Of a stretch of DNA of 36,007 nt, positions 2,617 through 34,603 are shown piece by piece. The translations under genes and the position numbers were made by a program. Each line of letters starts with the position of its first letter. Within the stretch, counting starts at the first letter, position 1. The notes beneath the pieces are model-generated. The model did no database searches, was not told the DNA's origin, and worked only from the letters and a program-made list of their open reading frames with translations. The stretch is taken from UHGV virus genome UHGV-0135626. One strand, given 5' to 3'. The DNA comes from a virus.

Positions 2617-2657
2617 AAACCTCTTTCCTTAGTGCCTTTTGTATGTTATTTGGCTAT

Positions 2658-2680
2658 TATAATAAGTAAGTGATTACTTA
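2658..2680 (+). promoter_or_regulatory. Candidate promoter/operator: consensus -10 hexamer abutting a palindrome
   Basis: Perfect TATAAT at 2658-2663, then TAAGTAA-gtga-TTACTTA (7-bp arms, 2663-2680) ending at the first codon of the ParB-like operon. The -35 element is weak. Confidence 0.35.
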
Positions 2681-3379
2681 GTGTATTGTAGCAATAAAAT
2701 GGATGTAAAAATCACGATTTTGCAGGTTGATGTTGCCAACCTTCGCCCGAATACCTGGAACACCAATTCGGTTGGTGCGCAGAATTTTGAAAAACTGAAA
2801 GGTTCTATCGAAAAATTGGGCTTTTTTAAGCCAATTTTGGCTCGTGAACTTGAAGATGGATTTTTTGAAATCCTCGGCGGCGAACATCGCTGGCGTGCCG
2901 CTATTGAGCAAGGAATTTCAACGGTTCCAGTGCTTTCTGTGGGCAAAATTAGCGATGTCGTAGCTAAACAGATGTCACTGGTGGACAACGAGCGATACGG
3001 TGAAGACGACCAAATCGCATTGCAACGCTTCATTGAAGAAATTCAGTCAGAACTTGACTATCAACTGTCTGAAATCGCCCCGTATGACGACGAAATCTCG
3101 ATGGTTTTAGCAAAAGAGGCGGCAATCGACCTTGAAGCACTGGAGGCGTTGTCTCGTGGTAGTGATGAGCCTGTCGATACCGACAAACGAGAGAAAACCG
3201 AACGTGTGGGTGCGGAACATCAGACCATGCGCTTCAAAGTAACTTTCGATGCGTCAGATCGTGTTGCAGAAACCATAAAAAACATCATCAAAGAGCAGGC
3301 TATTAACACCGGTAATGAAATGGAGAACGCTGGTGAGGCTCTGGTGTGGCTGGTCGACTACTACAAGGAGCGTATGTAA
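2681..3379 (+). CDS. ParB/Srx-like nuclease-domain protein, copy 1
   Basis: ORF begins with GTG at 2681 (alternative ATG at 2699); neither has a strong SD. ParB N-terminal box FEILGGEHRWRAAIEQG; acidic C-terminal half. Stop overlaps the next start (TAATG at 3377-3381). Confidence 0.75.
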   Translation: MYCSNKMDVKITILQVDVANLRPNTWNTNSVGAQNFEKLKGSIEKLGFFKPILARELEDGFFEILGGEHRWRAAIEQGISTVPVLSVGKISDVVAKQMSLVDNERYGEDDQIALQRFIEEIQSELDYQLSEIAPYDDEISMVLAKEAAIDLEALEALSRGSDEPVDTDKREKTERVGAEHQTMRFKVTFDASDRVAETIKNIIKEQAINTGNEMENAGEALVWLVDYYKERM

Positions 3380-4047
3380 TGACCAAAAAGTTTGAAATCG
3401 TATATCGCGACCCGGCAGATCTTATTCCCTATGAGATGAATGCCAAAAAGCATGATGAACAGCAGATCAGAGATCTGGCCGCAGCCATTAAAAAGCGCGG
3501 ATTTGACCAGCCAATTACGGTCGATAAGAACGACGTAATTATTACTGGTCATGGCCGCCGTGAGGCTGCAATTTTTGCTGGACTTGAGCGCGTACCGGTT
3601 ATTGTTCGCGATGATCTCAGTGATGACGAGGTTCGTGCGAAGCGCCTTGAAGATAACCGACTTGCCAGCATTGATTACGATGCAATTAAGCTACAGAAAG
3701 AGCTTGAGTCGCTTGTTCTGGACGATATCGAGGTTTTCGGCTTTGAAGAGCGTGAGTTGAATGTTCTCGTTGGCAGTATGACAGAAGAAATGGACACCGA
3801 CTCGCTAGTTATCGATCTTGGCGAAGAAACTAAACGACAGAAGGATGAACACACCGAGATCAGTCGTGAAGTTGCAGCGGAAGAAGTACGTGTTGTCGAC
3901 GTATTGGGCTTTAAAACGCTTCCTGCTGGCTCTGCCATTGTTGTTGGTGATTTGCTTGCCCACATGGAAGAAATGACGGGAGAAAGCGGGGTAGACGCAT
4001 TTGTGGCATATGCGGAGAAGATCTCTTCCGGGGAGATGGCTGCATGA
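3379..4047 (+). CDS. ParB/Srx-like nuclease-domain protein, copy 2
   Basis: Start taken at ATG 3379 (MTKKFEIV), overlapping the upstream stop; the track ORF begins at 3346. ParB box IITGHGRREAAIFAG; acidic C-terminal region. Confidence 0.75.
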   Translation: MTKKFEIVYRDPADLIPYEMNAKKHDEQQIRDLAAAIKKRGFDQPITVDKNDVIITGHGRREAAIFAGLERVPVIVRDDLSDDEVRAKRLEDNRLASIDYDAIKLQKELESLVLDDIEVFGFEERELNVLVGSMTEEMDTDSLVIDLGEETKRQKDEHTEISREVAAEEVRVVDVLGFKTLPAGSAIVVGDLLAHMEEMTGESGVDAFVAYAEKISSGEMAA

Positions 4048-5605: not shown

Positions 5606-5872
5606 ATGACGTTAACCGATAAACAAAAGGACATCATCAAAACGCTCAATCTCGGTTATGAGCGAGGTCATCTACTTGACCTGGACGAATTGCTTGAAGT
5701 TTTGCCGTACAAGACAACCAAGCAAAGTATCCAGTTCTCAATTCGCGCTCTGATAAAAAAGGGGCTGGTGGAGAAAGGGCATACGCGCCAACGCAGTGAC
5801 AATCGCTATCACCGCCGAACTCTTGGGTTAACCACTTTAGGTCGAGCCAAAGCGAAGTTACTGGTGATGTAA
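5606..5872 (+). CDS. Small basic protein, putative winged-helix DNA-binding regulator
   Basis: 88 aa, SD AAGGA 5 nt upstream, 9 nt after the GNAT gene stop. Basic C-terminus (RQRSDNRYHRRTLG); the helix-turn-helix assignment is pattern-level only. Confidence 0.5.
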   Translation: MTLTDKQKDIIKTLNLGYERGHLLDLDELLEVLPYKTTKQSIQFSIRALIKKGLVEKGHTRQRSDNRYHRRTLGLTTLGRAKAKLLVM

Positions 5873-5990: not shown

Positions 5991-6059
5991 AAACAAGTTG
6001 GTTAGCAGATGCAGTAAACAAGTTGTTTTAGAGCGCATGGACGCGCTCTGTGTGTTTTA
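5991..6059 (+). promoter_or_regulatory. Repeat cluster upstream of terS; candidate regulatory or packaging-recognition region
   Basis: AAACAAGTTG twice (5991-6000, 6016-6025), the second forming the near-palindrome AAACAAgTTGTTT (6016-6028). GTTTTAGAG twice (6023-6031, 6051-6059) flanking hairpin AGAGCGC-atggac-GCGCTCT. No clean sigma70 -35/-10 found. Confidence 0.35.
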
Positions 6060-6701: not shown

Positions 6702-7957
6702 TGGCAATCCCGTCCTCGCTCAGTCTTGTGCAACTGCATTCTGGACAGATGAAAGTCTTCCAGTCTCCGCATCGATTTAAAGTTGTTTGTGCTGGTCGAC
6801 GCTGGGGAAAATCCCGGTTGTCGATCTCCACTATTATTCGTGCGGCGGCAAAGGAAAAAAAGCAAAGGGTCTGGTATGTCGCTCCTACTTACCAGATGGC
6901 TCGCCAGATTTTGTGGGACGATCTACAGGAAGTTCTGCCTCGTAAGTGGGTTAGGAAAAAGAACGACACCACGATGACAATCGTGTTGAAGAACGGTTCG
7001 GAGATCGCCCTCAAAGGTGCTGATAAGCCTGACACTCTGCGCGGCGTAGCGTTGCATTTTGTAGTGCTTGATGAATTTCAGGATATGAAGGCTGACACCT
7101 GGTACAAGGTGTTACGACCTACTCTTTCATCGACACGCGGCGGTGCACTGATCATTGGTACGCCAAAAGGCTTCTCGGAATTTCACAAACTGTGGACTAT
7201 AGGCCAGAACGTAGAGCTGCAAAGAAAGGGACAGTGGAAGAGCTGGCAGTTTGTAACTGCCGATTCTCCGTTTGTACCTACGGCGGAAATTGAAGCTGCT
7301 AAGAACGATATGGACCCGAAATCGTTCGCTCAGGAGTACCTGGCGAGCTTTGAGAACATGTCCGGGCGCGTTTACTACCCGTTCGATCGTAACGTGCATG
7401 TAAAACCGCTTCAGTTCAACCCTCGGTTGCCTATATGGGTAGGGCAGGACTTCAACATTGACCCGATGTCTTCAGTAATTTTGCAACCTCAGCCAAATGG
7501 TGAGCTATGGGCAATTGATGAATTGGTGCTCTTTTCCTCTAACACGGCAGAGGTTTGTGATGAGCTTGAGAGACGCTTCTGGCGCTGGAAATCACAGATA
7601 ACGGTATTTCCAGATCCGGCAGGTGCTTATCGCCAACATGCTCGCGGGGAGTCTGACGTCGACATATTCAAAGAGAAGGGATTCTTACGTGTCGATTATT
7701 CGAAAAAGCACCCGCCAATTGCGGATCGTGTTAATGCTGTTAACCGAATGCTGATGACCGCATCTGGAGATATCCGGCTGTATATCGATCCGAAGTGCAA
7801 GCATTTGATTGATTCACTGGAAAAAGTCATCTACAAGCCTGGAACACGAGATATGGATAAGACAGGTGGCATTGAGCATAGTGCAGACGCATTGGGCTAT
7901 CCAGTACATCGTAGGTATCCAGTCAAAAACCGTGTTATTCTTGGTGGTTCTCGATAG
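6701..7957 (+). CDS. terL: Terminase large subunit (ATPase and nuclease)
   Basis: 418 aa. Walker A-like VVCAGRRWGKS, Walker B HFVVLDEFQDM, acidic residues in the C-terminal half; sits directly upstream of the portal gene. Confidence 0.8.
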   Translation: MAIPSSLSLVQLHSGQMKVFQSPHRFKVVCAGRRWGKSRLSISTIIRAAAKEKKQRVWYVAPTYQMARQILWDDLQEVLPRKWVRKKNDTTMTIVLKNGSEIALKGADKPDTLRGVALHFVVLDEFQDMKADTWYKVLRPTLSSTRGGALIIGTPKGFSEFHKLWTIGQNVELQRKGQWKSWQFVTADSPFVPTAEIEAAKNDMDPKSFAQEYLASFENMSGRVYYPFDRNVHVKPLQFNPRLPIWVGQDFNIDPMSSVILQPQPNGELWAIDELVLFSSNTAEVCDELERRFWRWKSQITVFPDPAGAYRQHARGESDVDIFKEKGFLRVDYSKKHPPIADRVNAVNRMLMTASGDIRLYIDPKCKHLIDSLEKVIYKPGTRDMDKTGGIEHSADALGYPVHRRYPVKNRVILGGSR

Positions 7958-7983
7958 GTAAGTAATTATCTAAGGTTATTCAA

Positions 7984-9558
7984 ATGGAATTGAACGACAA
8001 ACAAATTAAGGATCTGGTGGCGCGACGCCACCCGGAATACGAAAAGAAAAAAGAACATTGGGACTTCCTCGCCAGCACTTACGCTGGCGGGCGTGGTTGG
8101 TTTACAGACAATATCTTTCGTTACTTTAAAGAGGGAGATCAGGAGTTTAAGGAGCGAGTTGAACGTGCTTATCGCTTCAACCACACTCGTGAGGTGGTAA
8201 ACCTCATCAACAAATATCTCTTTAAAGAAGACATTCATAGAAATATCGAAGAGGCACCAGAGCAGATCCGCAATTTCTGGAAACGTGCGACTCGCCAGAA
8301 TGCCTCTATTGACTCATTTATGGCCGCTATTGATTTGCAGTCGTCTATTTACGGTCGCATATGGGTTGTTGTCGATAGCACGATGAGTGGTGATGTTGAG
8401 TCAGTAGCTGACGAGAAAAAGAAAGATGCTCGCGCCTACGCCTACTGGATTTCACCTCAGCAAATGCTGGATGTGGCATGGGACGACGACGGGAATATGT
8501 TGTGGGCGTTAATTGTGGAAGTCGCTCGTGATGACGCAGATCCTTTTACTTCTACAGGTCAGGAATACCAACGTTATCGTCTGTGGACACAAAACGAGTG
8601 GTATCTGTTCCGTGAGGAAGTGAAGAAGGGCGCTGGTGGAGCAGGTCGCCGTCAGGCAAAAGTTATTTTAGAGGATAGCGGTGAGCATAATCTCGGCGTA
8701 GTTCCTGTGTTTCCTGTTGATTGTATTGGAGAAAGTGAATCACCGTATTTCAGCCCATCGTTGATCGATGATATCGCTTATCTTGATCGTGCGGTTGCAA
8801 ACTATCTGTCAAACCTTGATGCCATTATTCAGGATCAGACATTTAGCCAGTTGGCTATACCGGTACAGTCGCTTTTACCTGGTGATGAAAACCACACTAA
8901 AGTGCTTGAAATGGGCACAAAGCGAGTCTTCACCTACGATTCTGAAGGTGGAAACCAGCCGTTTTATCTGTCACCAGACCCGAAACAAGCTCAGATGATC
9001 ATCACTACGATTAAGACGGTGATTAACGAAATCTACCATTCAGTTGGTGTAGCTGGTGAGCGAACGAAGCAGGACAACGCACAGGGAATCGATAATTCAT
9101 CTGGTGCCGCAAAAATGTATGACTTCCAGCGTGTAAATAGCTTGCTTGTCACAAAAGCAGAGCGTCTGGAAAGGGCTGAACGCCAAATCATGCTACTGGT
9201 TGCGAAATGGATGGGGGTAGATCTGGACGAAGACCACTCTTTAATTGCGTATCCAGAAAGTTTCGATATTCGTGGCCTTACTGATGAATTTTCTGTTGCC
9301 GAGAAACTGTCATTACTTCAGGCACCGGACTCTGTACGTCGTCACCAGATGGAAATGCTTATTGAGAAGATTTTCCCGAACATTACTGAGGCGATGAAAA
9401 AGGAATTTGATAAAGATCTCTTGAATTTTCCTCCAAAAAATGATCTAAATACCCTTGAAAATAAGTCAGTACTTACTTATGATCGTGGTGCGGCCCAAGA
9501 AAGCGGGCAAGATCAACCCCGAGGGAATGGGGACTCATCTACTCAAGAGAACGAGTGA
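7984..9558 (+). CDS. Portal protein
   Basis: 524-aa ORF directly after terL, with an acidic and Gly-rich C-terminus; assigned by size and conserved gene order. Confidence 0.75.
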   Translation: MELNDKQIKDLVARRHPEYEKKKEHWDFLASTYAGGRGWFTDNIFRYFKEGDQEFKERVERAYRFNHTREVVNLINKYLFKEDIHRNIEEAPEQIRNFWKRATRQNASIDSFMAAIDLQSSIYGRIWVVVDSTMSGDVESVADEKKKDARAYAYWISPQQMLDVAWDDDGNMLWALIVEVARDDADPFTSTGQEYQRYRLWTQNEWYLFREEVKKGAGGAGRRQAKVILEDSGEHNLGVVPVFPVDCIGESESPYFSPSLIDDIAYLDRAVANYLSNLDAIIQDQTFSQLAIPVQSLLPGDENHTKVLEMGTKRVFTYDSEGGNQPFYLSPDPKQAQMIITTIKTVINEIYHSVGVAGERTKQDNAQGIDNSSGAAKMYDFQRVNSLLVTKAERLERAERQIMLLVAKWMGVDLDEDHSLIAYPESFDIRGLTDEFSVAEKLSLLQAPDSVRRHQMEMLIEKIFPNITEAMKKEFDKDLLNFPPKNDLNTLENKSVLTYDRGAAQESGQDQPRGNGDSSTQENE

Positions 9559-11368: not shown

Positions 11369-11400
11369 TCAGTGCAGTAGATAAGTAATTATCTATGTTA

Positions 11401-11430
11401 AAGGGTGGGCTATACGCCCACCCTTTTTGT
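11401..11430 (+). terminator. Rho-independent terminator after the capsid gene
   Basis: AAGGGTGGGC-tatac-GCCCACCCTT followed by TTTTGT: 10-bp GC-rich stem plus T-tract. Confidence 0.8.
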
Positions 11431-11441
11431 AGGAGCGAGAA

Positions 11442-14563: not shown

Positions 14564-14947
14564 GTGTTTATTGAAGCGTTTGCAAGTTTGATGCAGAAGG
14601 CAAAGATTGGCACGGTCGGGACTGACATTTTCTGTCACTACTTGCCTGCCAATGTGAAATCTGGCGTCCTGCTTATTAACCCAAATACCGGCATCAGCAT
14701 CGATCATGAGCTACAGGGCTTTTATCACGAATCATTCACAATCATTGTGCGTGGTTCGTCAATTACTACGACGGTTGAGAAAGCCAATAAAATCATTGAG
14801 ATGTTTCCAGTAGAGGAAACGGAATCTGGTGGTGTTTATTTTCGACTTGTACGACCGATGGCGATGCCAATCATTTATCCCAAAAATGATGGGGCATTAA
14901 TAGAAGCAGGCATTCCTGTTGAATTTGCTGGCTATTTATTGAATTAA
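14564..14947 (+). CDS. Tail terminator or tail completion protein (putative)
   Basis: The track ORF (14441-14947) overlaps the upstream gene in another frame. A GTG at 14564 with SD GAGAGG 5 nt upstream, just after the upstream stop (14560-14562), gives about 127 aa. Start uncertain (alternative ATG 14591). Confidence 0.45.
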   Translation: MFIEAFASLMQKAKIGTVGTDIFCHYLPANVKSGVLLINPNTGISIDHELQGFYHESFTIIVRGSSITTTVEKANKIIEMFPVEETESGGVYFRLVRPMAMPIIYPKNDGALIEAGIPVEFAGYLLN

Positions 14948-14956
14948 CTCAATTGG

Positions 14957-14970
14957 TAAGTATATACTTA
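14957..14970. promoter_or_regulatory. Perfect 14-bp palindrome TAAGTATATACTTA upstream of the major tail gene
   Basis: Exact self-complementary 14-mer in the 74-bp gap before the major tail protein start; same TAAGTA half-site as the other intergenic palindromes. Confidence 0.4.
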
Positions 14971-15021
14971 CTATTAGCACAATGAATGCGTAGAATTAAC
15001 GGAAAAAGGAGTTTTCCATCA

Positions 15022-15768
15022 ATGTCTAATACCCATGTAAAAAACATCAAACTTGGTGCCTGTAAGGTGTCGTTTGGTGGTGTGGATTTGGGTTACACCA
15101 AAGGTGGTGTTCAGGTTGAAGTAGCCACTGAAACGCTGAAAGTCACCGTCGATCAGTTGGGGCAGACCGTAATTTCCGAATTAGTTCAGGGGCGCAACAT
15201 TACCATCACCGCGCCTCTGGCTGAGTCTGTACTCCAAAACATGGTTGACCTGATGCCTGGTTCTACTCTGAGCGAAGATGACAACTCTGTCACGATCACA
15301 TCTGCACAGGGCGTTAACCTGATTGATGTGGCGAAGGAGCTGGTTCTGACTCCGCAGGACACCACCGACTATGTGTTGACCATCCCGAAAGCGGCAACCG
15401 CGGGCAACTTCACTATGACCTACCAGTCTGATGATGTTCGTGTGTTCTCTGTTCAGTTCAGCGCATACCCGGATGATGAAGGCGTTCTGGGCAAAATGAG
15501 CGGTCCTAAACCGGTAAAAACTGTGTCGATCTCACCGGAATCTCCAACCGTAAAAGCTGGAGAAACTGTGCAACTGACAGCCGAAATCACTCCAGCTGAT
15601 GCCGCAGACAAAACCGGTGTTTGGGAATCCGAAGACCAGGAAAAGGCCACGGTAGATCAAACGGGTCTTGTGCGCGGTGTGGCGCAGGGTACTGCAAACA
15701 TCTCCTTCACCAGCAATAGCGGTTCTAAGAAGGCTACTAAGTCAGTAACGATTAACTCCGCAGATTAA
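15022..15768 (+). CDS. Major tail (tube) protein with C-terminal Ig-like (Big_2) domain
   Basis: Start taken at ATG 15022 (MSNTHVKN) with SD AAAGGAG upstream; the track ORF starts at 14986 without an SD. C-terminal 80 aa match the Big_2 pattern seen in the decoration protein, as on lambda gpV. Confidence 0.7.
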   Translation: MSNTHVKNIKLGACKVSFGGVDLGYTKGGVQVEVATETLKVTVDQLGQTVISELVQGRNITITAPLAESVLQNMVDLMPGSTLSEDDNSVTITSAQGVNLIDVAKELVLTPQDTTDYVLTIPKAATAGNFTMTYQSDDVRVFSVQFSAYPDDEGVLGKMSGPKPVKTVSISPESPTVKAGETVQLTAEITPADAADKTGVWESEDQEKATVDQTGLVRGVAQGTANISFTSNSGSKKATKSVTINSAD

Positions 15769-21436: not shown

Positions 21437-21518
21437 GCATCTGGATAAGTAAGTACTAATTTACTATCATTGTGGCGCTGACAGGATGTTAGCGCCTACT
21501 TATTTCAAGGATGAAACA

Positions 21519-27766: not shown

Positions 27767-27859
27767 TTGTGGAAAAAAATAATCATTTCTGTAAAAATAG
27801 GTAGGTACTAACTTAATGGTGGGCATGGAACGCCCACCATATCTAGGAGCAAAGGATAA

Positions 27860-31946: not shown

Positions 31947-31976
31947 TTTACAGATAGGTAAGTGCATACCTATATA
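31947..31976 (+). promoter_or_regulatory. Candidate sigma70-type promoter with an embedded operator palindrome
   Basis: -35-like TTTACA (31947-31952), 18-bp spacer, -10-like TATATA (31971-31976). The spacer holds the perfect inverted repeat ATAGGTA-agtgca-TACCTAT (31954-31973). Confidence 0.45.
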
Positions 31977-32035
31977 AAAAAGATAAAATGTGATATAAAT
32001 CCGCCATCCCGATTTGACTTTTCATGGAGGAAAAT

Positions 32036-34324: not shown

Positions 34325-34603
34325 TCTCCTCTGTTCAAACTGAGTTTTCGACTCAAAAATTACTTTAAAAGGCTATAGCCCATTACGTGTGCATTATCAA
34401 ATTGTGTACGGCATATCACCGTACTTGTAATATAGAGGTCATTGTTACTTTTTTCAACAGACAAATACAAGCTATGATTGCCAATTGTTAACCACAACCT
34501 ACCATTTAACCTTTACACCGCAGCCGTAGGCATTTAGGCTATATCACATATAAGAAAACAAGTTGTTTCAGACGATAATTATATACGCAAAGGGAACTCT
34601 CCA
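34325..34603. promoter_or_regulatory. Divergent control region between the toxin-antitoxin operon and parA; candidate operators or centromere
   Basis: 279-bp non-coding gap holding palindrome GGCTATAGCC (34371-34380), inverted repeat GTACGG-N7-CCGTAC (34406-34424) and near-palindrome AAACAAgTTGTTT (34556-34568) about 35 bp before parA. Confidence 0.45.

What the first reader, a model, noticed from the sequence alone, without database searches (positions are those of the whole stretch)
14957..14970. Perfect 14-bp palindrome TAAGTATATACTTA before the major tail gene
An exact self-complementary 14-mer lies in the 74-bp gap before the major tail protein start, about 50 bp upstream of its SD, with a TAGAAT -10-like hexamer at 14991-14996. 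Dyad symmetry this perfect in an AT-rich spacer points to a dimeric DNA-binding protein site.
Basis: seen in the sequence. Interest (0 to 1): 0.5.

Follow-up and report, generated by a model that had tools for sequence, protein, structure and literature searches.

The report
Repeated regulatory palindrome before phage genes
The palindrome before the tail gene is one of about thirty copies of a conserved protein-binding site placed in the promoters of the lytic genes of an SSU5-type phage-plasmid (the family that includes Yersinia pestis pMT1 and Salmonella Typhi pHCM2), so it most likely marks a previously undescribed genome-wide on/off switch for virus production.

Summary
The palindrome is real; it is a perfect 16-mer (GTAAGTATATACTTAC, 14956-14971). 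Perfection alone is not significant: 44% of shuffled windows hold a palindrome of at least 16 bp. The same dyad, TA(A/G)GTA-NN-TAC(T/C)TA, recurs 8 times in the window and about 26-30 times in the 108-kb genome (Escherichia phage Cyrano, SSU5 family). Nearly every copy lies in a gap 2-130 nt before a rightward lytic gene. The tail-gene copy is invariant from Escherichia to Yersinia and Klebsiella while its flanks diverge, and a related dyad fills the same gaps in distant Acinetobacter phage-plasmids. Arm deviations are never compensated (0 of 63), so it is a DNA site for a symmetric protein, not an RNA hairpin. The conserved promoter is TTGAAT-18-TATACT, with its -10 inside the palindrome, followed by a covarying 5' hairpin and a hairpin presenting the ribosome-binding site. 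Best reading (about 0.45): operator of the lysogeny repressor (CYRAN_45 family, encoded outside the window), which would silence each lytic promoter directly. Main rival (about 0.3): a positive-control box like the P1 Lpa box, which has identical AAGT/ACTT half-sites, read by an 88-aa winged-helix protein encoded at 5606-5872. I found no prior description.

The parts
14956..14971 (.). Perfect 16-bp palindrome GTAAGTATATACTTAC. It is the tail-gene copy of the family dyad (core 14957-14970) and the best-scoring copy in the window (26.5 bits).
   Evidence: Core invariant in 11 of 12 orthologues from 7 genera.
14939..14944 (+). -35-like hexamer TTGAAT, overlapping the last codons of the upstream gene; 18-bp spacer to TATACT.
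   Evidence: TTG is retained in all orthologues (TTGAAT, TTGAAC, TTGTAA), though coding constraint may contribute.
14963..14968 (+). -10-like hexamer TATACT in the centre of the palindrome. It predicts a transcription start near 14975.
   Evidence: The central TA is invariant in all 12 orthologues, although these two positions vary freely among the other family sites.
14977..14991 (+). HP1: small RNA hairpin in the tail-gene leader. Its sequence varies but its pairing is kept across relatives. In this window it has one A.C mismatch.
   Evidence: 4 of 5 pairs show double compensatory changes (GCACC/GGTGC, GTGTC/GACAC, CGTCA/TGACG).
15001..15017 (+). HP2: hairpin GGAAAA/UUUUCC presenting the Shine-Dalgarno AGGAG (15007-15011) in its loop.
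   Evidence: Nearly invariant, with one compensatory A-U to U-A change in a Klebsiella element.
15022..15768 (+). Major tail protein gene with a C-terminal Ig-like domain; the gene served by this control region.
2667..2680 (.). Dyad copy TAAGTGATTACTTA in the divergent gap between the UvsW-type helicase operon (minus strand) and the operon of ParB-like, ParB-like, ABC ATPase, ATPase and winged-helix genes (plus strand).
   Evidence: Orthologous sites in SSU5, Klebsiella and Acinetobacter. The SSU5 orthologue has a 4-bp shorter centre.
7955..7968 (.). Dyad copy TAGGTAAGTAATTA, 15 nt before the portal gene.
   Evidence: The SSU5 orthologue is the perfect 18-mer TAGGTAAGTGCTTACCTA.
9462..9475 (.). 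Dyad copy TAAGTCAGTACTTA inside the end of the portal gene. It fills the spacer of a strong promoter-like element, TTGAAA-17-TATGAT, 104 nt before the next gene.
11382..11395 (.). Dyad copy TAAGTAATTATCTA after the major capsid gene, followed by a G+C-rich hairpin with a T-run.
21446..21459 (.). Dyad copy TAAGTAAGTACTAA before the minor tail protein L gene. It lies within TGGATA-17-TATCAT and is followed by the hairpin GGCGCTGACAGGATGTTAGCGCC.
27798..27815 (.). Dyad copy TAGGTAGGTACTAACTTA before the tail-fibre gene, followed by the hairpin GGTGGGCATGGAACGCCCACC.
31959..31972 (.). Dyad copy TAAGTGCATACCTA, 51 nt before the gene at 32024 that heads the lysis cluster (annotated as holin in the Cyrano record).
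5606..5872 (+). 88-aa MarR-type winged-helix DNA-binding protein (CYRAN_123), immediately upstream of the small terminase gene. It is the in-window candidate reader of the dyad.
   Evidence: AlphaFold2 pLDDT 81.5, pTM 0.71. Foldseek matches to MepR, MarR, AdcR and HpaR-DNA, TM 0.70-0.77. Present in all dyad-bearing lineages and not detected in dyad-less ZY21.
2699..4047 (+). Two tandem ParB_N-domain proteins (2699-3379 and 3379-4047). Weaker candidates for the dyad-binding protein.
   Evidence: Pfam ParB_N, 3e-13 and 1e-8. PDB matches to Spo0J, ParB and Noc. Also present in ZY21, which lacks the dyad.

Best explanation
The palindrome is an operator. It is one copy of a lineage-specific 14-18-bp dyad (half-site TA(A/G)GTA, built from TARG units phased every 4 bp) that lies inside the core promoters of about 26-30 rightward lytic transcription units of SSU5-type phage-plasmids. 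At the tail gene it covers the -10 hexamer of a sigma-70-type promoter, TTGAAT-18-TATACT. That promoter would start the major-tail-protein mRNA at about 14975, 1-3 nt before a conserved 5' hairpin (HP1), with a second hairpin displaying the ribosome-binding site. In the plasmid (lysogenic) state a symmetric phage regulator sits on each dyad and blocks RNA polymerase, so every lytic operon is silenced directly. When the regulator is inactivated after DNA damage, the promoters fire with host polymerase. The most likely regulator is the XRE-type repressor of the CYRAN_45 family, which is encoded outside this window next to an integrase and appears to control its own promoter through a dyad of the same family. 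Shown here: the family, its placement, its conservation, its DNA-level symmetry and the leader hairpins. Inferred: the transcription start, the sign of regulation and the identity of the protein.
For: Family and placement: 20 distinct sites with <=1 mismatch in the whole genome, 17 fully intergenic although only 13% of the genome is intergenic. 49 PWM hits (about 30 distinct sites) against 1.4 in shuffles. 26 of 77 gaps carry the dyad, with a bimodal score distribution, and no minus-strand lysogeny or plasmid gene has one outside the two divergent regions. Conservation: SSU5 has 27 sites at orthologous positions, a 40-kb Klebsiella locus has 7, and the distant Acinetobacter element has 33 related sites, 28 of them intergenic. 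The tail-gene core is invariant while its flanks diverge. DNA, not RNA: 0 of 63 arm deviations are compensated, and each half varies independently as TAAGTA or TAGGTA. Inside promoters: the full -35/-10 promoter score is directional, forward beating mirror at 19/25 sites (p=0.003) in Cyrano and 20/25 (p=0.0004) in SSU5, with 10 sites at >=9 bits forward against 1-3 mirrored. The dyad then falls between -35 and -10 or on the -10. At four sites the predicted start falls at the foot of a hairpin. At the tail site only TTGAAT-18-TATACT is called, and its -10 is invariant in all orthologues although the two central positions vary among other sites. Repressor link: the CYRAN_45 control region has TTTACA-N16/17-TAATAT followed at once by GGTAAG-CA-CTTACC over the predicted start, about 34 nt before the ATG, in E. 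coli, pHCM2, pMT1 and Klebsiella. The HTH segment is the most conserved part of the protein. Its homologues occur in 995 plasmids with the same genus distribution as the tail-gene region, including Acinetobacter, and are absent from dyad-less ZY21-type phages. CYRAN_45 is expressed in the lysogen, no gene directly downstream of a strong dyad is listed as expressed there, and Cyrano is induced by ciprofloxacin (PMC9928086). Precedent: P1 C1 acts at operators dispersed around its genome (PMC8198154; annotated operators).
Against: There are no binding or transcript data. About 60% of enteric sites, and the Acinetobacter sites in general, have no recognisable -35, which is unexpected for promoters that must fire with host polymerase alone once derepressed. 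The half-sites occur in two registers (TAAG-N6-CTTA at the tail gene, TAAG-N2-CTTA at the repressor's own promoter and in Acinetobacter), which is awkward for one rigid dimer. The operator sequence is conserved across genera and orders, whereas immunity specificities usually diverge quickly. SSU5 lacks CYRAN_45 yet keeps all the dyads. No dyad was found by the PWM scan at the divergent promoter facing CYRAN_46, where a master repressor would be expected to act. The tail-site promoter match (9 of 12) is chance-level on its own. CYRAN_45 matches Pfam HTH_19 only below the curated cutoff and has no solved homologue.
Confidence: 0.45

Rival explanations
1. Positive-control promoter box. The dyad replaces the -35 element of phage-specific middle and late promoters and is read by a phage activator that recruits host RNA polymerase, as the Lpa box does in P1. 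The reader would be the 88-aa winged-helix protein encoded at 5606-5872, just upstream of the terminase genes.
For: The P1 late-promoter box is AAGT-N-ACTT (AAGTGACTT, AAGTTACTT) centred near -22, and the dyad here is T-AAGT-A-NN-T-ACTT-A, with identical half-sites. In the sites with a recognisable promoter the dyad centre falls at about -18 to -25. Most sites lack a -35. Between-genome conservation extends about 14 bp downstream of the dyad but stops abruptly upstream. ORF 5606-5872 is a MarR-type winged helix in the same position as lpa before pacA in P1. Lpa's core is also predicted to be a winged helix. This ORF's distribution matches that of the dyad exactly: Cyrano, SSU5, Klebsiella and Acinetobacter have it and ZY21 does not. 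That includes SSU5, which has no repressor. Deep conservation is typical of late-activator sites. Late genes of well-studied phages are under positive control (PMC10695390).
Against: No Lpa-family protein (PF25716) exists in any of these elements: tblastn found nothing and the HMM's best hit was E=1.9 against 1.5e-83 for the P1 control. ORF 5606 shows no profile similarity to Lpa (0.2%) and lacks Lpa's C-terminal extension. The winged helix is a very common fold. The spacing of the half-sites differs from P1 (N4 against N1). The -10-like hexamers flanking the dyad are equally frequent on the mirrored side, so they belong to the palindrome and are not directional. There is no fixed dyad-to-(-10) distance in the enteric sites. 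At the tail gene the hexamer downstream of the dyad is not conserved (TATTAG, CATTGG, CATTAA, TAACCG), and a start from it would fall inside the conserved HP1. The dyad also precedes replication and nucleotide-metabolism genes, not only late genes. The candidate activator lies in an operon that itself begins with a dyad.
Confidence: 0.3
2. KorB- or ParB-type global regulator site. One or both of the ParB_N-domain proteins (2699-4047) bind the dyads and regulate transcription from many promoters, as KorB does at its palindromic operators on plasmid RK2 (own knowledge), or they organise the DNA for packaging.
For: Two ParB_N proteins, one with an intact GxxRxxA motif, are encoded directly downstream of dyad copy 2667. 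ParB-family proteins bind 13-16-bp palindromes as dimers (own knowledge). The module is conserved in every relative examined.
Against: ZY21 has both ParB-like proteins (33-42% identity) but no dyad or any other repeated intergenic motif in the 36.8 kb examined. Only the N-terminal domain is confidently detected, and the HTH region aligns poorly. Strict placement just upstream of genes is not expected for partition or condensation sites.
Confidence: 0.07
3. RNA-level element. The palindrome acts in the transcript as a hairpin, for example as a processing, stabilising or translational-operator site between cistrons.
For: This particular copy can form an 8-bp hairpin (-6.8 kcal/mol, z = -3.7). 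It lies between two genes of the same orientation. An FljA-family protein, whose relatives act on mRNA (own knowledge), is encoded by the enteric elements.
Against: 0 of 63 arm deviations are compensated. The deviations are a mixture of G.T and A.C on the same strand, which no single-stranded reading preserves. Conservation is of sequence, not of pairing, in contrast to the neighbouring HP1, which does covary. There is no Rfam match. The Acinetobacter elements keep the dyad but lack the FljA-like gene.
Confidence: 0.05
4. Chance palindrome in an AT-rich spacer with no function.
For: Perfect palindromes of 14-16 bp are expected by chance in 36 kb (2.4 and 0.57 per shuffle).
Against: The same sequence recurs 8 times in the window against 0.3-0.9 expected. 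It is invariant across 7 genera while its flanks diverge. It marks the same gaps in a distant Acinetobacter element.
Confidence: 0.01

Closest known systems
Dispersed C1 operators of plasmid prophage P1
   Same: A plasmid prophage with dozens of separate transcription units. One short site is repeated at many promoters around the genome and lets a single repressor hold the lytic operons off. Induction after DNA damage would need an antirepressor, because the repressor lacks a self-cleavage domain (P1 literature; annotated operators; CYRAN_45 is 128 aa with no peptidase domain).
   Different: P1 operators are asymmetric 17-mers, whereas this site is a symmetric dyad. In P1, C1 controls early operons and lpa but not the structural operons directly, whereas here the same dyad precedes both replication and structural genes. 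CYRAN_45 is XRE-type. I did not test for a C1 homologue.
P1 late promoters (Lpa box, '-22 region')
   Same: Identical half-sites, AAGT and ACTT. An inverted repeat lies between the -35 and -10 positions of many dispersed promoters. A small winged-helix protein is encoded just before the packaging genes.
   Different: Half-site spacing is N4 (or N0 in the other register) against N1 in P1. There is no fixed 4-bp distance to a -10. No Lpa (PF25716) homologue is present. The regulon is not restricted to late genes.
KorB operators (OB) of IncP plasmid RK2
   Same: A short palindrome repeated at many promoters of one replicon, at variable distances from the core promoter, read by a ParB-family protein (own knowledge). 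ParB_N proteins are encoded next to one dyad copy.
   Different: The sequences are unrelated. The ParB-like proteins are also present in a relative without the dyad.
Lambdoid CI/Cro-type operators
   Same: 14-18-bp dyads overlapping the core promoter, read by an HTH dimer, including at the repressor's own promoter.
   Different: Lambdoid operators cluster at two loci and late genes are reached by antitermination. Here single operators sit at about 30 loci. Two half-site registers coexist.

Membership tests
P1-type late promoter (Lpa-dependent) | 9-bp inverted repeat AAGT-N-ACTT | tested here: not met
   The half-sites AAGT/ACTT are identical, but they are separated by 4 bp (TAAGTA-NN-TACTTA) or 0 bp in the other register, never by 1 bp.
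P1-type late promoter (Lpa-dependent) | Fixed 4-bp distance from the box to a TAnnnT -10 hexamer, with no -35 | tested here: not met
   The offsets of the best -10 vary from 7 to 30. The -10-like hexamers at dyad positions 13 and 17 are equally frequent on the mirrored side. About 40% of sites do have a -35-like hexamer.
P1-type late promoter (Lpa-dependent) | Element encodes an Lpa-family activator (Pfam PF25716 / phrog_1704) | tested here: not met
   tblastn found nothing and an HMM built from 16 Lpa relatives gave a best E of 1.9 against 1.5e-83 for the P1 control. hhalign of ORF 5606 against Lpa gave 0.2%.
P1-type late promoter (Lpa-dependent) | Confined to late (morphogenesis, lysis, packaging) operons | tested here: not met
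   The dyads also precede the UvsY, SSB, SbcCD, RNR, ThyX and Dam genes and the primase/helicase region.
Dispersed operator regulon of a plasmid-prophage master repressor (P1 C1-like in logic) | Many copies of one site located at promoters of lytic operons and absent from genes expressed in lysogeny | tested here: met
   26 of 77 gaps carry the dyad, all before plus-strand lytic-type genes. ParA, RepA, the toxin-antitoxin pairs and the morons have none. The list of genes expressed in the lysogen comes from PMC9928086.
Dispersed operator regulon of a plasmid-prophage master repressor (P1 C1-like in logic) | Site overlaps the core promoter so that a bound protein excludes RNA polymerase | tested here: inconclusive
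   Directional sigma-70 promoter signal is present, with the dyad between -35 and -10 or on the -10, at about 10 of 25 sites. The other sites and the Acinetobacter sites show no -35. All promoters are predictions.
Dispersed operator regulon of a plasmid-prophage master repressor (P1 C1-like in logic) | Cognate repressor encoded, expressed in the lysogen and autoregulated through the same site | tested here: inconclusive
   CYRAN_45 is expressed about 10-fold above background in the lysogen. A family dyad lies over the predicted start of its promoter in four lineages. However, that dyad is in the N2 register, unlike the tail-gene site.
Dispersed operator regulon of a plasmid-prophage master repressor (P1 C1-like in logic) | Direct binding of the repressor to the site | not testable with these tools
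   Needs EMSA, footprinting or ChIP.
KorB/ParB-type global operator | ParB-family protein with an HTH DNA-binding domain that co-occurs with the site | tested here: not met
   The ParB_N domain is detected, but the HTH region aligns poorly. The proteins are present in ZY21, which has no dyad.
Intrinsic terminator or structured RNA element | G+C-rich stem followed by a U-tract, or base pairing maintained by covariation | tested here: not met
   No terminator is called. 0 of 63 deviations are compensated. There is no Rfam match.

The most novel reading that the evidence does not exclude
The dyad is the recognition box of an unrecognised class of phage transcription activator. An 88-aa minimal winged-helix protein (5606-5872), unrelated in sequence to P1 Lpa but equivalent in position, in fold class and in AAGT/ACTT half-site preference, would switch on about 30 promoters that lack a -35, covering both replication and virion genes. 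The system would be shared by the SSU5, pMT1 and pHCM2 supergroup and the Acinetobacter AB group, and its phased TARG lattice would let the factor bind in alternative registers.
Probability: 0.25. Interest if true: 0.7.

Novelty: new variant of a known kind. Interest (0 to 1): 0.55.

Why it matters
SSU5-type phage-plasmids include Yersinia pestis pMT1, Salmonella Typhi pHCM2 and many Klebsiella, Escherichia and Enterobacter plasmids, some of which carry resistance genes. How they keep about 100 kb of lytic genes silent, and how they turn them on, has not been described in the literature I could search. A single conserved dyad at about 30 promoters gives a concrete map of the transcription units. 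It also yields a short list of three candidate regulators and a simple set of reporter and binding experiments that would define the lysis-lysogeny switch for the whole family. The identity of the half-sites with the P1 Lpa box, without any Lpa homologue, raises a testable question of convergence between the two best-known enterobacterial plasmid-prophage families.

Tried and rejected
(1) TAGAAT (14991-14996) as the -10: rejected because it is not conserved, has no -35 partner and lies at the 3' edge of HP1. (2) RNA hairpin: rejected by the lack of compensation and by Rfam. (3) Lpa homologue: sought by tblastn, by a family HMM, by PHROGs and by hhalign, and none was found. (4) Phage-encoded sigma factor: the Acinetobacter element encodes a weakly sigma-like protein, but tblastn and a family HMM find no homologue in the enteric elements, so it cannot explain the shared dyad. 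(5) Directional -10 next to the dyad: it looked convincing by eye, but the mirror control showed it belongs to the extended palindrome. (6) A repeated motif in the lytic relative ZY21: none was found. (7) Pfam and PHROGs scans of about 20 candidate or uncharacterised proteins found nothing regulatory beyond ParB_N, the FljA family and a weak HTH_19. (8) A PDB sequence search for CYRAN_45 gave no hit. (9) Four literature searches for a prior description found nothing. The P1 genome paper was not held. (10) Host regulators recalled from memory (Fur, LexA, RcsAB, NarL, SlmA, TrpR boxes) were compared by eye and none matches the invariant G4/C11 and AAGT core. These are leads only and were not tested.
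Full report
IDENTITY OF THE WINDOW. The window is an SSU5-type phage-plasmid, 99% identical over the region tested to Escherichia phage Cyrano (OV696614), the plasmid prophage of E. coli LF82. Window position 14957 corresponds to Cyrano 9023. The first roughly 5.9 kb of the window correspond to the end of the Cyrano record. Relatives at decreasing identity are other E. coli elements, Shigella, Salmonella SSU5 and pHCM2, Yersinia pestis pMT1, Enterobacter, Citrobacter and Klebsiella elements, and, much more distantly, Acinetobacter baumannii phage-plasmids and the lytic Pseudomonas phage ZY21. The relationship between the SSU5 supergroup and the Acinetobacter 'AB' group has been published (PMC7969092).

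THE OBSERVATION. TAAGTATATACTTA is at 14957-14970 as stated, and G14956 and C14971 extend it to a perfect 16-mer. The 74-bp gap, the TAGAAT at 14991-14996 and the distance to the Shine-Dalgarno sequence are all as described. The downstream gene is the Ig-domain major tail protein. A perfect palindrome of this size is not evidence in itself. Shuffled windows contain on average 2.4 palindromes of >=14 bp, and 44% of them contain one of >=16 bp. The real window has fewer palindromes than expected.

IT IS A FAMILY. Searching with mismatches showed that the outer arms recur: TAAGTNNNNACTTA with <=1 mismatch occurs 8 times against 0.93 expected. An unbiased count of gapped palindromes independently ranks TAAGT-N4-ACTTA first in the window. 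In the whole Cyrano genome there are 20 distinct sites with <=1 mismatch. Seventeen of them are fully intergenic, although only 13% of the genome is intergenic. A symmetrised PWM gives 49 hits (about 30 distinct sites) against 1.4 in shuffles. Scores across the 77 gaps of at least 30 bp are bimodal: 26 gaps score >=12 bits, three are weak, and the remaining 48 score 6 bits or less. Dyad-bearing gaps precede portal, capsid-accessory, tail, tail-tip, tail-fibre, lysis, helicase/primase-region, UvsY, SSB, SbcCD, RNR, ThyX and Dam genes, among others. Minus-strand plasmid and lysogeny genes have none, apart from two divergent regions. The window holds eight copies: 2667, 7955, 9462, 11382, 14957, 21446, 27798 and 31959. 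Each lies 15-104 nt before a plus-strand gene, and the tail-gene copy scores highest.

ANATOMY OF THE DYAD. The core is TAAGTA-NN-TACTTA. Positions 6 and 9, which were not used to select the sites, are conserved symmetrically. The flanks are weakly symmetric: R-R on the left and Y-Y on the right, extending to ...ATGATAAG / CTTATCAT.... Deviations are almost all A/G in the left arm or T/C in the right arm, independently of each other, and none of 63 deviant pairs is compensated. This is the signature of a DNA site read by a symmetric protein, not of an RNA stem. TA(A/G)G...C(C/T)TA pairs are enriched only at spacings N2, N6 and N10, a 4-bp lattice. Two registers coexist: TAAG-N6-CTTA (most E. 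coli and Salmonella sites, including the tail gene) and TAAG-N2-CTTA flanked by a second TARG/CYTA pair (some enteric sites, most Klebsiella sites and nearly all Acinetobacter sites). An orthologous site can switch register through a 4-bp indel: window 2667 TAAGTGATTACTTA against SSU5 TAAGTGCTTA. I cannot explain how one protein reads both registers.

CONSERVATION. SSU5 has 27 sites at orthologous positions. A 40-kb Klebsiella locus has 7. In an alignment of the tail-gene gap from 11 elements of 7 genera the core is invariant, apart from one substitution in one Klebsiella phage, while the flanks diverge. The Acinetobacter element pABA-1fe1 aligns with the window over only 93 nt of the tail gene. 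It nevertheless carries 33 copies of ATTAGTAAG-C(G/A)-CTTACTAAT, 28 of them intergenic, in the equivalent gaps: tail gene, portal, capsid, after the tape measure, first ParB-like gene, and replication and RNR genes. ZY21 shares the gene order but has no such motif.

RELATION TO PROMOTERS. Between Cyrano and SSU5, identity is high from about -4 to +28 relative to the dyad and then falls to background. It drops abruptly on the upstream side and more gradually downstream. The -10-like hexamers that abut the dyad looked like promoters, but a mirror control shows they are equally frequent on the upstream side in both the enteric and the Acinetobacter elements. They therefore belong to the extended palindrome. 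In contrast, the full -35/spacer/-10 score is directional: forward exceeds mirror at 19/25 sites in Cyrano (p=0.003) and 20/25 in SSU5 (p=0.0004). About 10 sites have good promoters in which the dyad fills the spacer or overlaps the -35 or -10, for example TTGAAA-17-TATGAT at 9462 and TTGATA-17-TAACAT. The remaining enteric sites and the Acinetobacter sites show no -35.

THE TAIL-GENE SITE. The only promoter called by the consensus scan is TTGAAT(14939-14944)-18-TATACT(14963-14968). On its own this is a chance-level match. However, the TATACT is invariant in all orthologues although the two central positions vary freely among other sites of the family, and a TTG is kept at the -35 position even where the upstream gene ends differently. 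It predicts a start near 14975. Immediately downstream, RNAalifold finds HP1 (14977-14991), with compensatory changes in 4 of 5 pairs, and HP2 (15001-15017), which presents AGGAG in its loop. A 5'-terminal hairpin is a known mRNA stabiliser (own knowledge). The same dyad-then-hairpin layout occurs at 11382, 21446 and 27798.

WHO BINDS? The candidates were compared by domain content, position and phylogenetic profile.
(a) CYRAN_45 is a 128-aa XRE-type protein next to an integrase, encoded outside the window. It is expressed in the LF82 lysogen, where the authors regard it as the putative repressor, and Cyrano is induced by ciprofloxacin. Its homologues occur in 995 plasmids with the same genus distribution as the tail-gene region, including Acinetobacter (38-48% identity), but not in ZY21-type phages. 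Its HTH segment is the most conserved part. In four enteric lineages its own promoter (TTTACA-N16/17-TAATAT) is followed at once by GGTAAG-CA-CTTACC over the predicted start. SSU5, isolated as a lytic phage, lacks the whole integrase, repressor and CYRAN_46 block yet keeps the dyads.
(b) The 88-aa ORF at 5606-5872 is predicted with confidence to be a MarR-type winged helix. It sits immediately before the terminase genes. It is present in every dyad-bearing lineage, including SSU5, and is undetectable in ZY21, although its four upstream neighbours and the terminase are all found there.
(c) Two ParB_N proteins (2699-4047) follow dyad copy 2667, but they are also present in dyad-less ZY21.
(d) A sigma-like protein is confined to the Acinetobacter lineage.

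THE P1 PARALLEL. P1's annotated late promoters consist of a 9-bp box, then 4 bp, then the -10. The box is AAGT-N-ACTT, with the same half-sites as here. P1 lpa lies just upstream of pacA, as ORF 5606 lies upstream of the small terminase gene, and the Lpa core is also predicted to be a winged helix. However, no Lpa-family protein exists in these elements. ORF 5606 shows no profile similarity to Lpa. The spacing differs, there is no fixed distance to a -10, and the regulon is not restricted to late genes. This is therefore a resemblance in how the system works, not membership of the Lpa family.

VERDICT. The palindrome is a genuine, conserved regulatory DNA site and one member of a genome-wide regulon, which I estimate at about 0.85 for that general statement. 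I commit to the operator model: direct repression of each lytic promoter by the lysogeny repressor (about 0.45). My reasons are as follows. At the tail gene and at the other sites with recognisable promoters, the dyad lies on the -10 or in the spacer. The conserved leader hairpin requires a start upstream of it. The repressor's own promoter carries a family dyad over its start. The activator model (about 0.3) remains serious, because most sites lack a -35, because of the P1 half-site identity, and because ORF 5606 has the better phylogenetic profile. A simple reporter experiment in a phage-free host would separate the two. I found no description of the motif in the searchable literature. That library is incomplete, and the P1 genome paper and the D6/SSU5 comparative paper were not available.

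Noticed in passing
window 6016-6028 and 34556-34568 (plus a 1-mismatch copy near 5991); Cyrano 82, 29259, 32080, 58595, 80549, 81278, 93114, 93165, 96286: A second, unrelated palindrome family, (A)AGA-AAACAA-N-TTGTTT. Cyrano has 18 copies with <=1 mismatch (0.9 expected), SSU5 has 20 (0.4 expected), and it is absent from the Acinetobacter element. The copies lie mostly 11-40 nt before start codons, in gaps that lack the first dyad (small terminase, ParA, DnaB helicase, CYRAN_47, RNR beta and many small genes at 80-98 kb). Some occur as oppositely oriented pairs about 50 bp apart around a promoter-like sequence. This looks like a second regulon, and the enteric-only FljA-family protein CYRAN_114 fits its distribution.
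   Followed up: partly
window 15001-15017: The Shine-Dalgarno sequence of the major tail gene sits in the loop of a conserved 6-bp hairpin (GGAAAA-AGGAG-UUUUCC), nearly invariant from E. coli to Klebsiella. It may be a ribosome 'standby' or display structure for a very highly expressed gene.
   Followed up: partly
window 11396-11441, 21474-21496, 27818-27838: Three other dyad copies are followed within 2-15 nt by G+C-rich hairpins. The one after the capsid gene has a T-run and looks like a terminator lying downstream of the dyad, which is an odd order if the dyad marks a promoter.
   Followed up: no
window 5606-5872: An 88-aa protein with no Pfam match and an unannotated PHROG family (phrog_900) is predicted with good confidence to be a minimal MarR-type winged helix. 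It occupies the position just before the terminase genes that late activators occupy in P1 (lpa) and, from my own knowledge, in several Gram-positive phages.
   Followed up: yes
Acinetobacter plasmid NZ_CP026128, record 83885-84550 (L020 45633-46298, minus strand): The Acinetobacter relative encodes a weakly sigma-70-like protein (Sigma70_r2, E=0.003) between the MoxR-type ATPase and the polymerase genes, in the operon leaving the repressor's switch region. No homologue exists in the enteric elements.
   Followed up: partly
SSU5 NC_018843, about 42.6-42.8 kb, against Cyrano 39.1-43.1 kb: SSU5, used as a lytic phage, lacks the block that in Cyrano, pHCM2, pMT1 and Klebsiella elements carries the integrase, the XRE-type repressor and the small divergent gene CYRAN_46. 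It looks like a deletion derivative that has lost the immunity region.
   Followed up: partly
whole window: Perfect palindromes are under-represented: 4 of >=12 bp against about 9 expected in shuffles. This is consistent with palindrome avoidance in a phage genome.
   Followed up: no
Cyrano 38253-38330 (outside the window; L002 about 7253-7330): The highest-scoring dyad in the genome (27.4 bits) is followed by a block that is 100% identical between Cyrano and SSU5 (tttgttttcgttgagacgcgactgtt), about 0.7 kb upstream of the tRNA cluster, with no annotated gene. It may be an untranslated transcript.
   Followed up: no
window 2617-2698: The dyad at 2667 lies in an 82-bp divergent gap and has good -10-like hexamers on both sides (TATTATAAT leftward toward the helicase operon, TATTGT rightward). 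One dyad may therefore control two divergent promoters.
   Followed up: no
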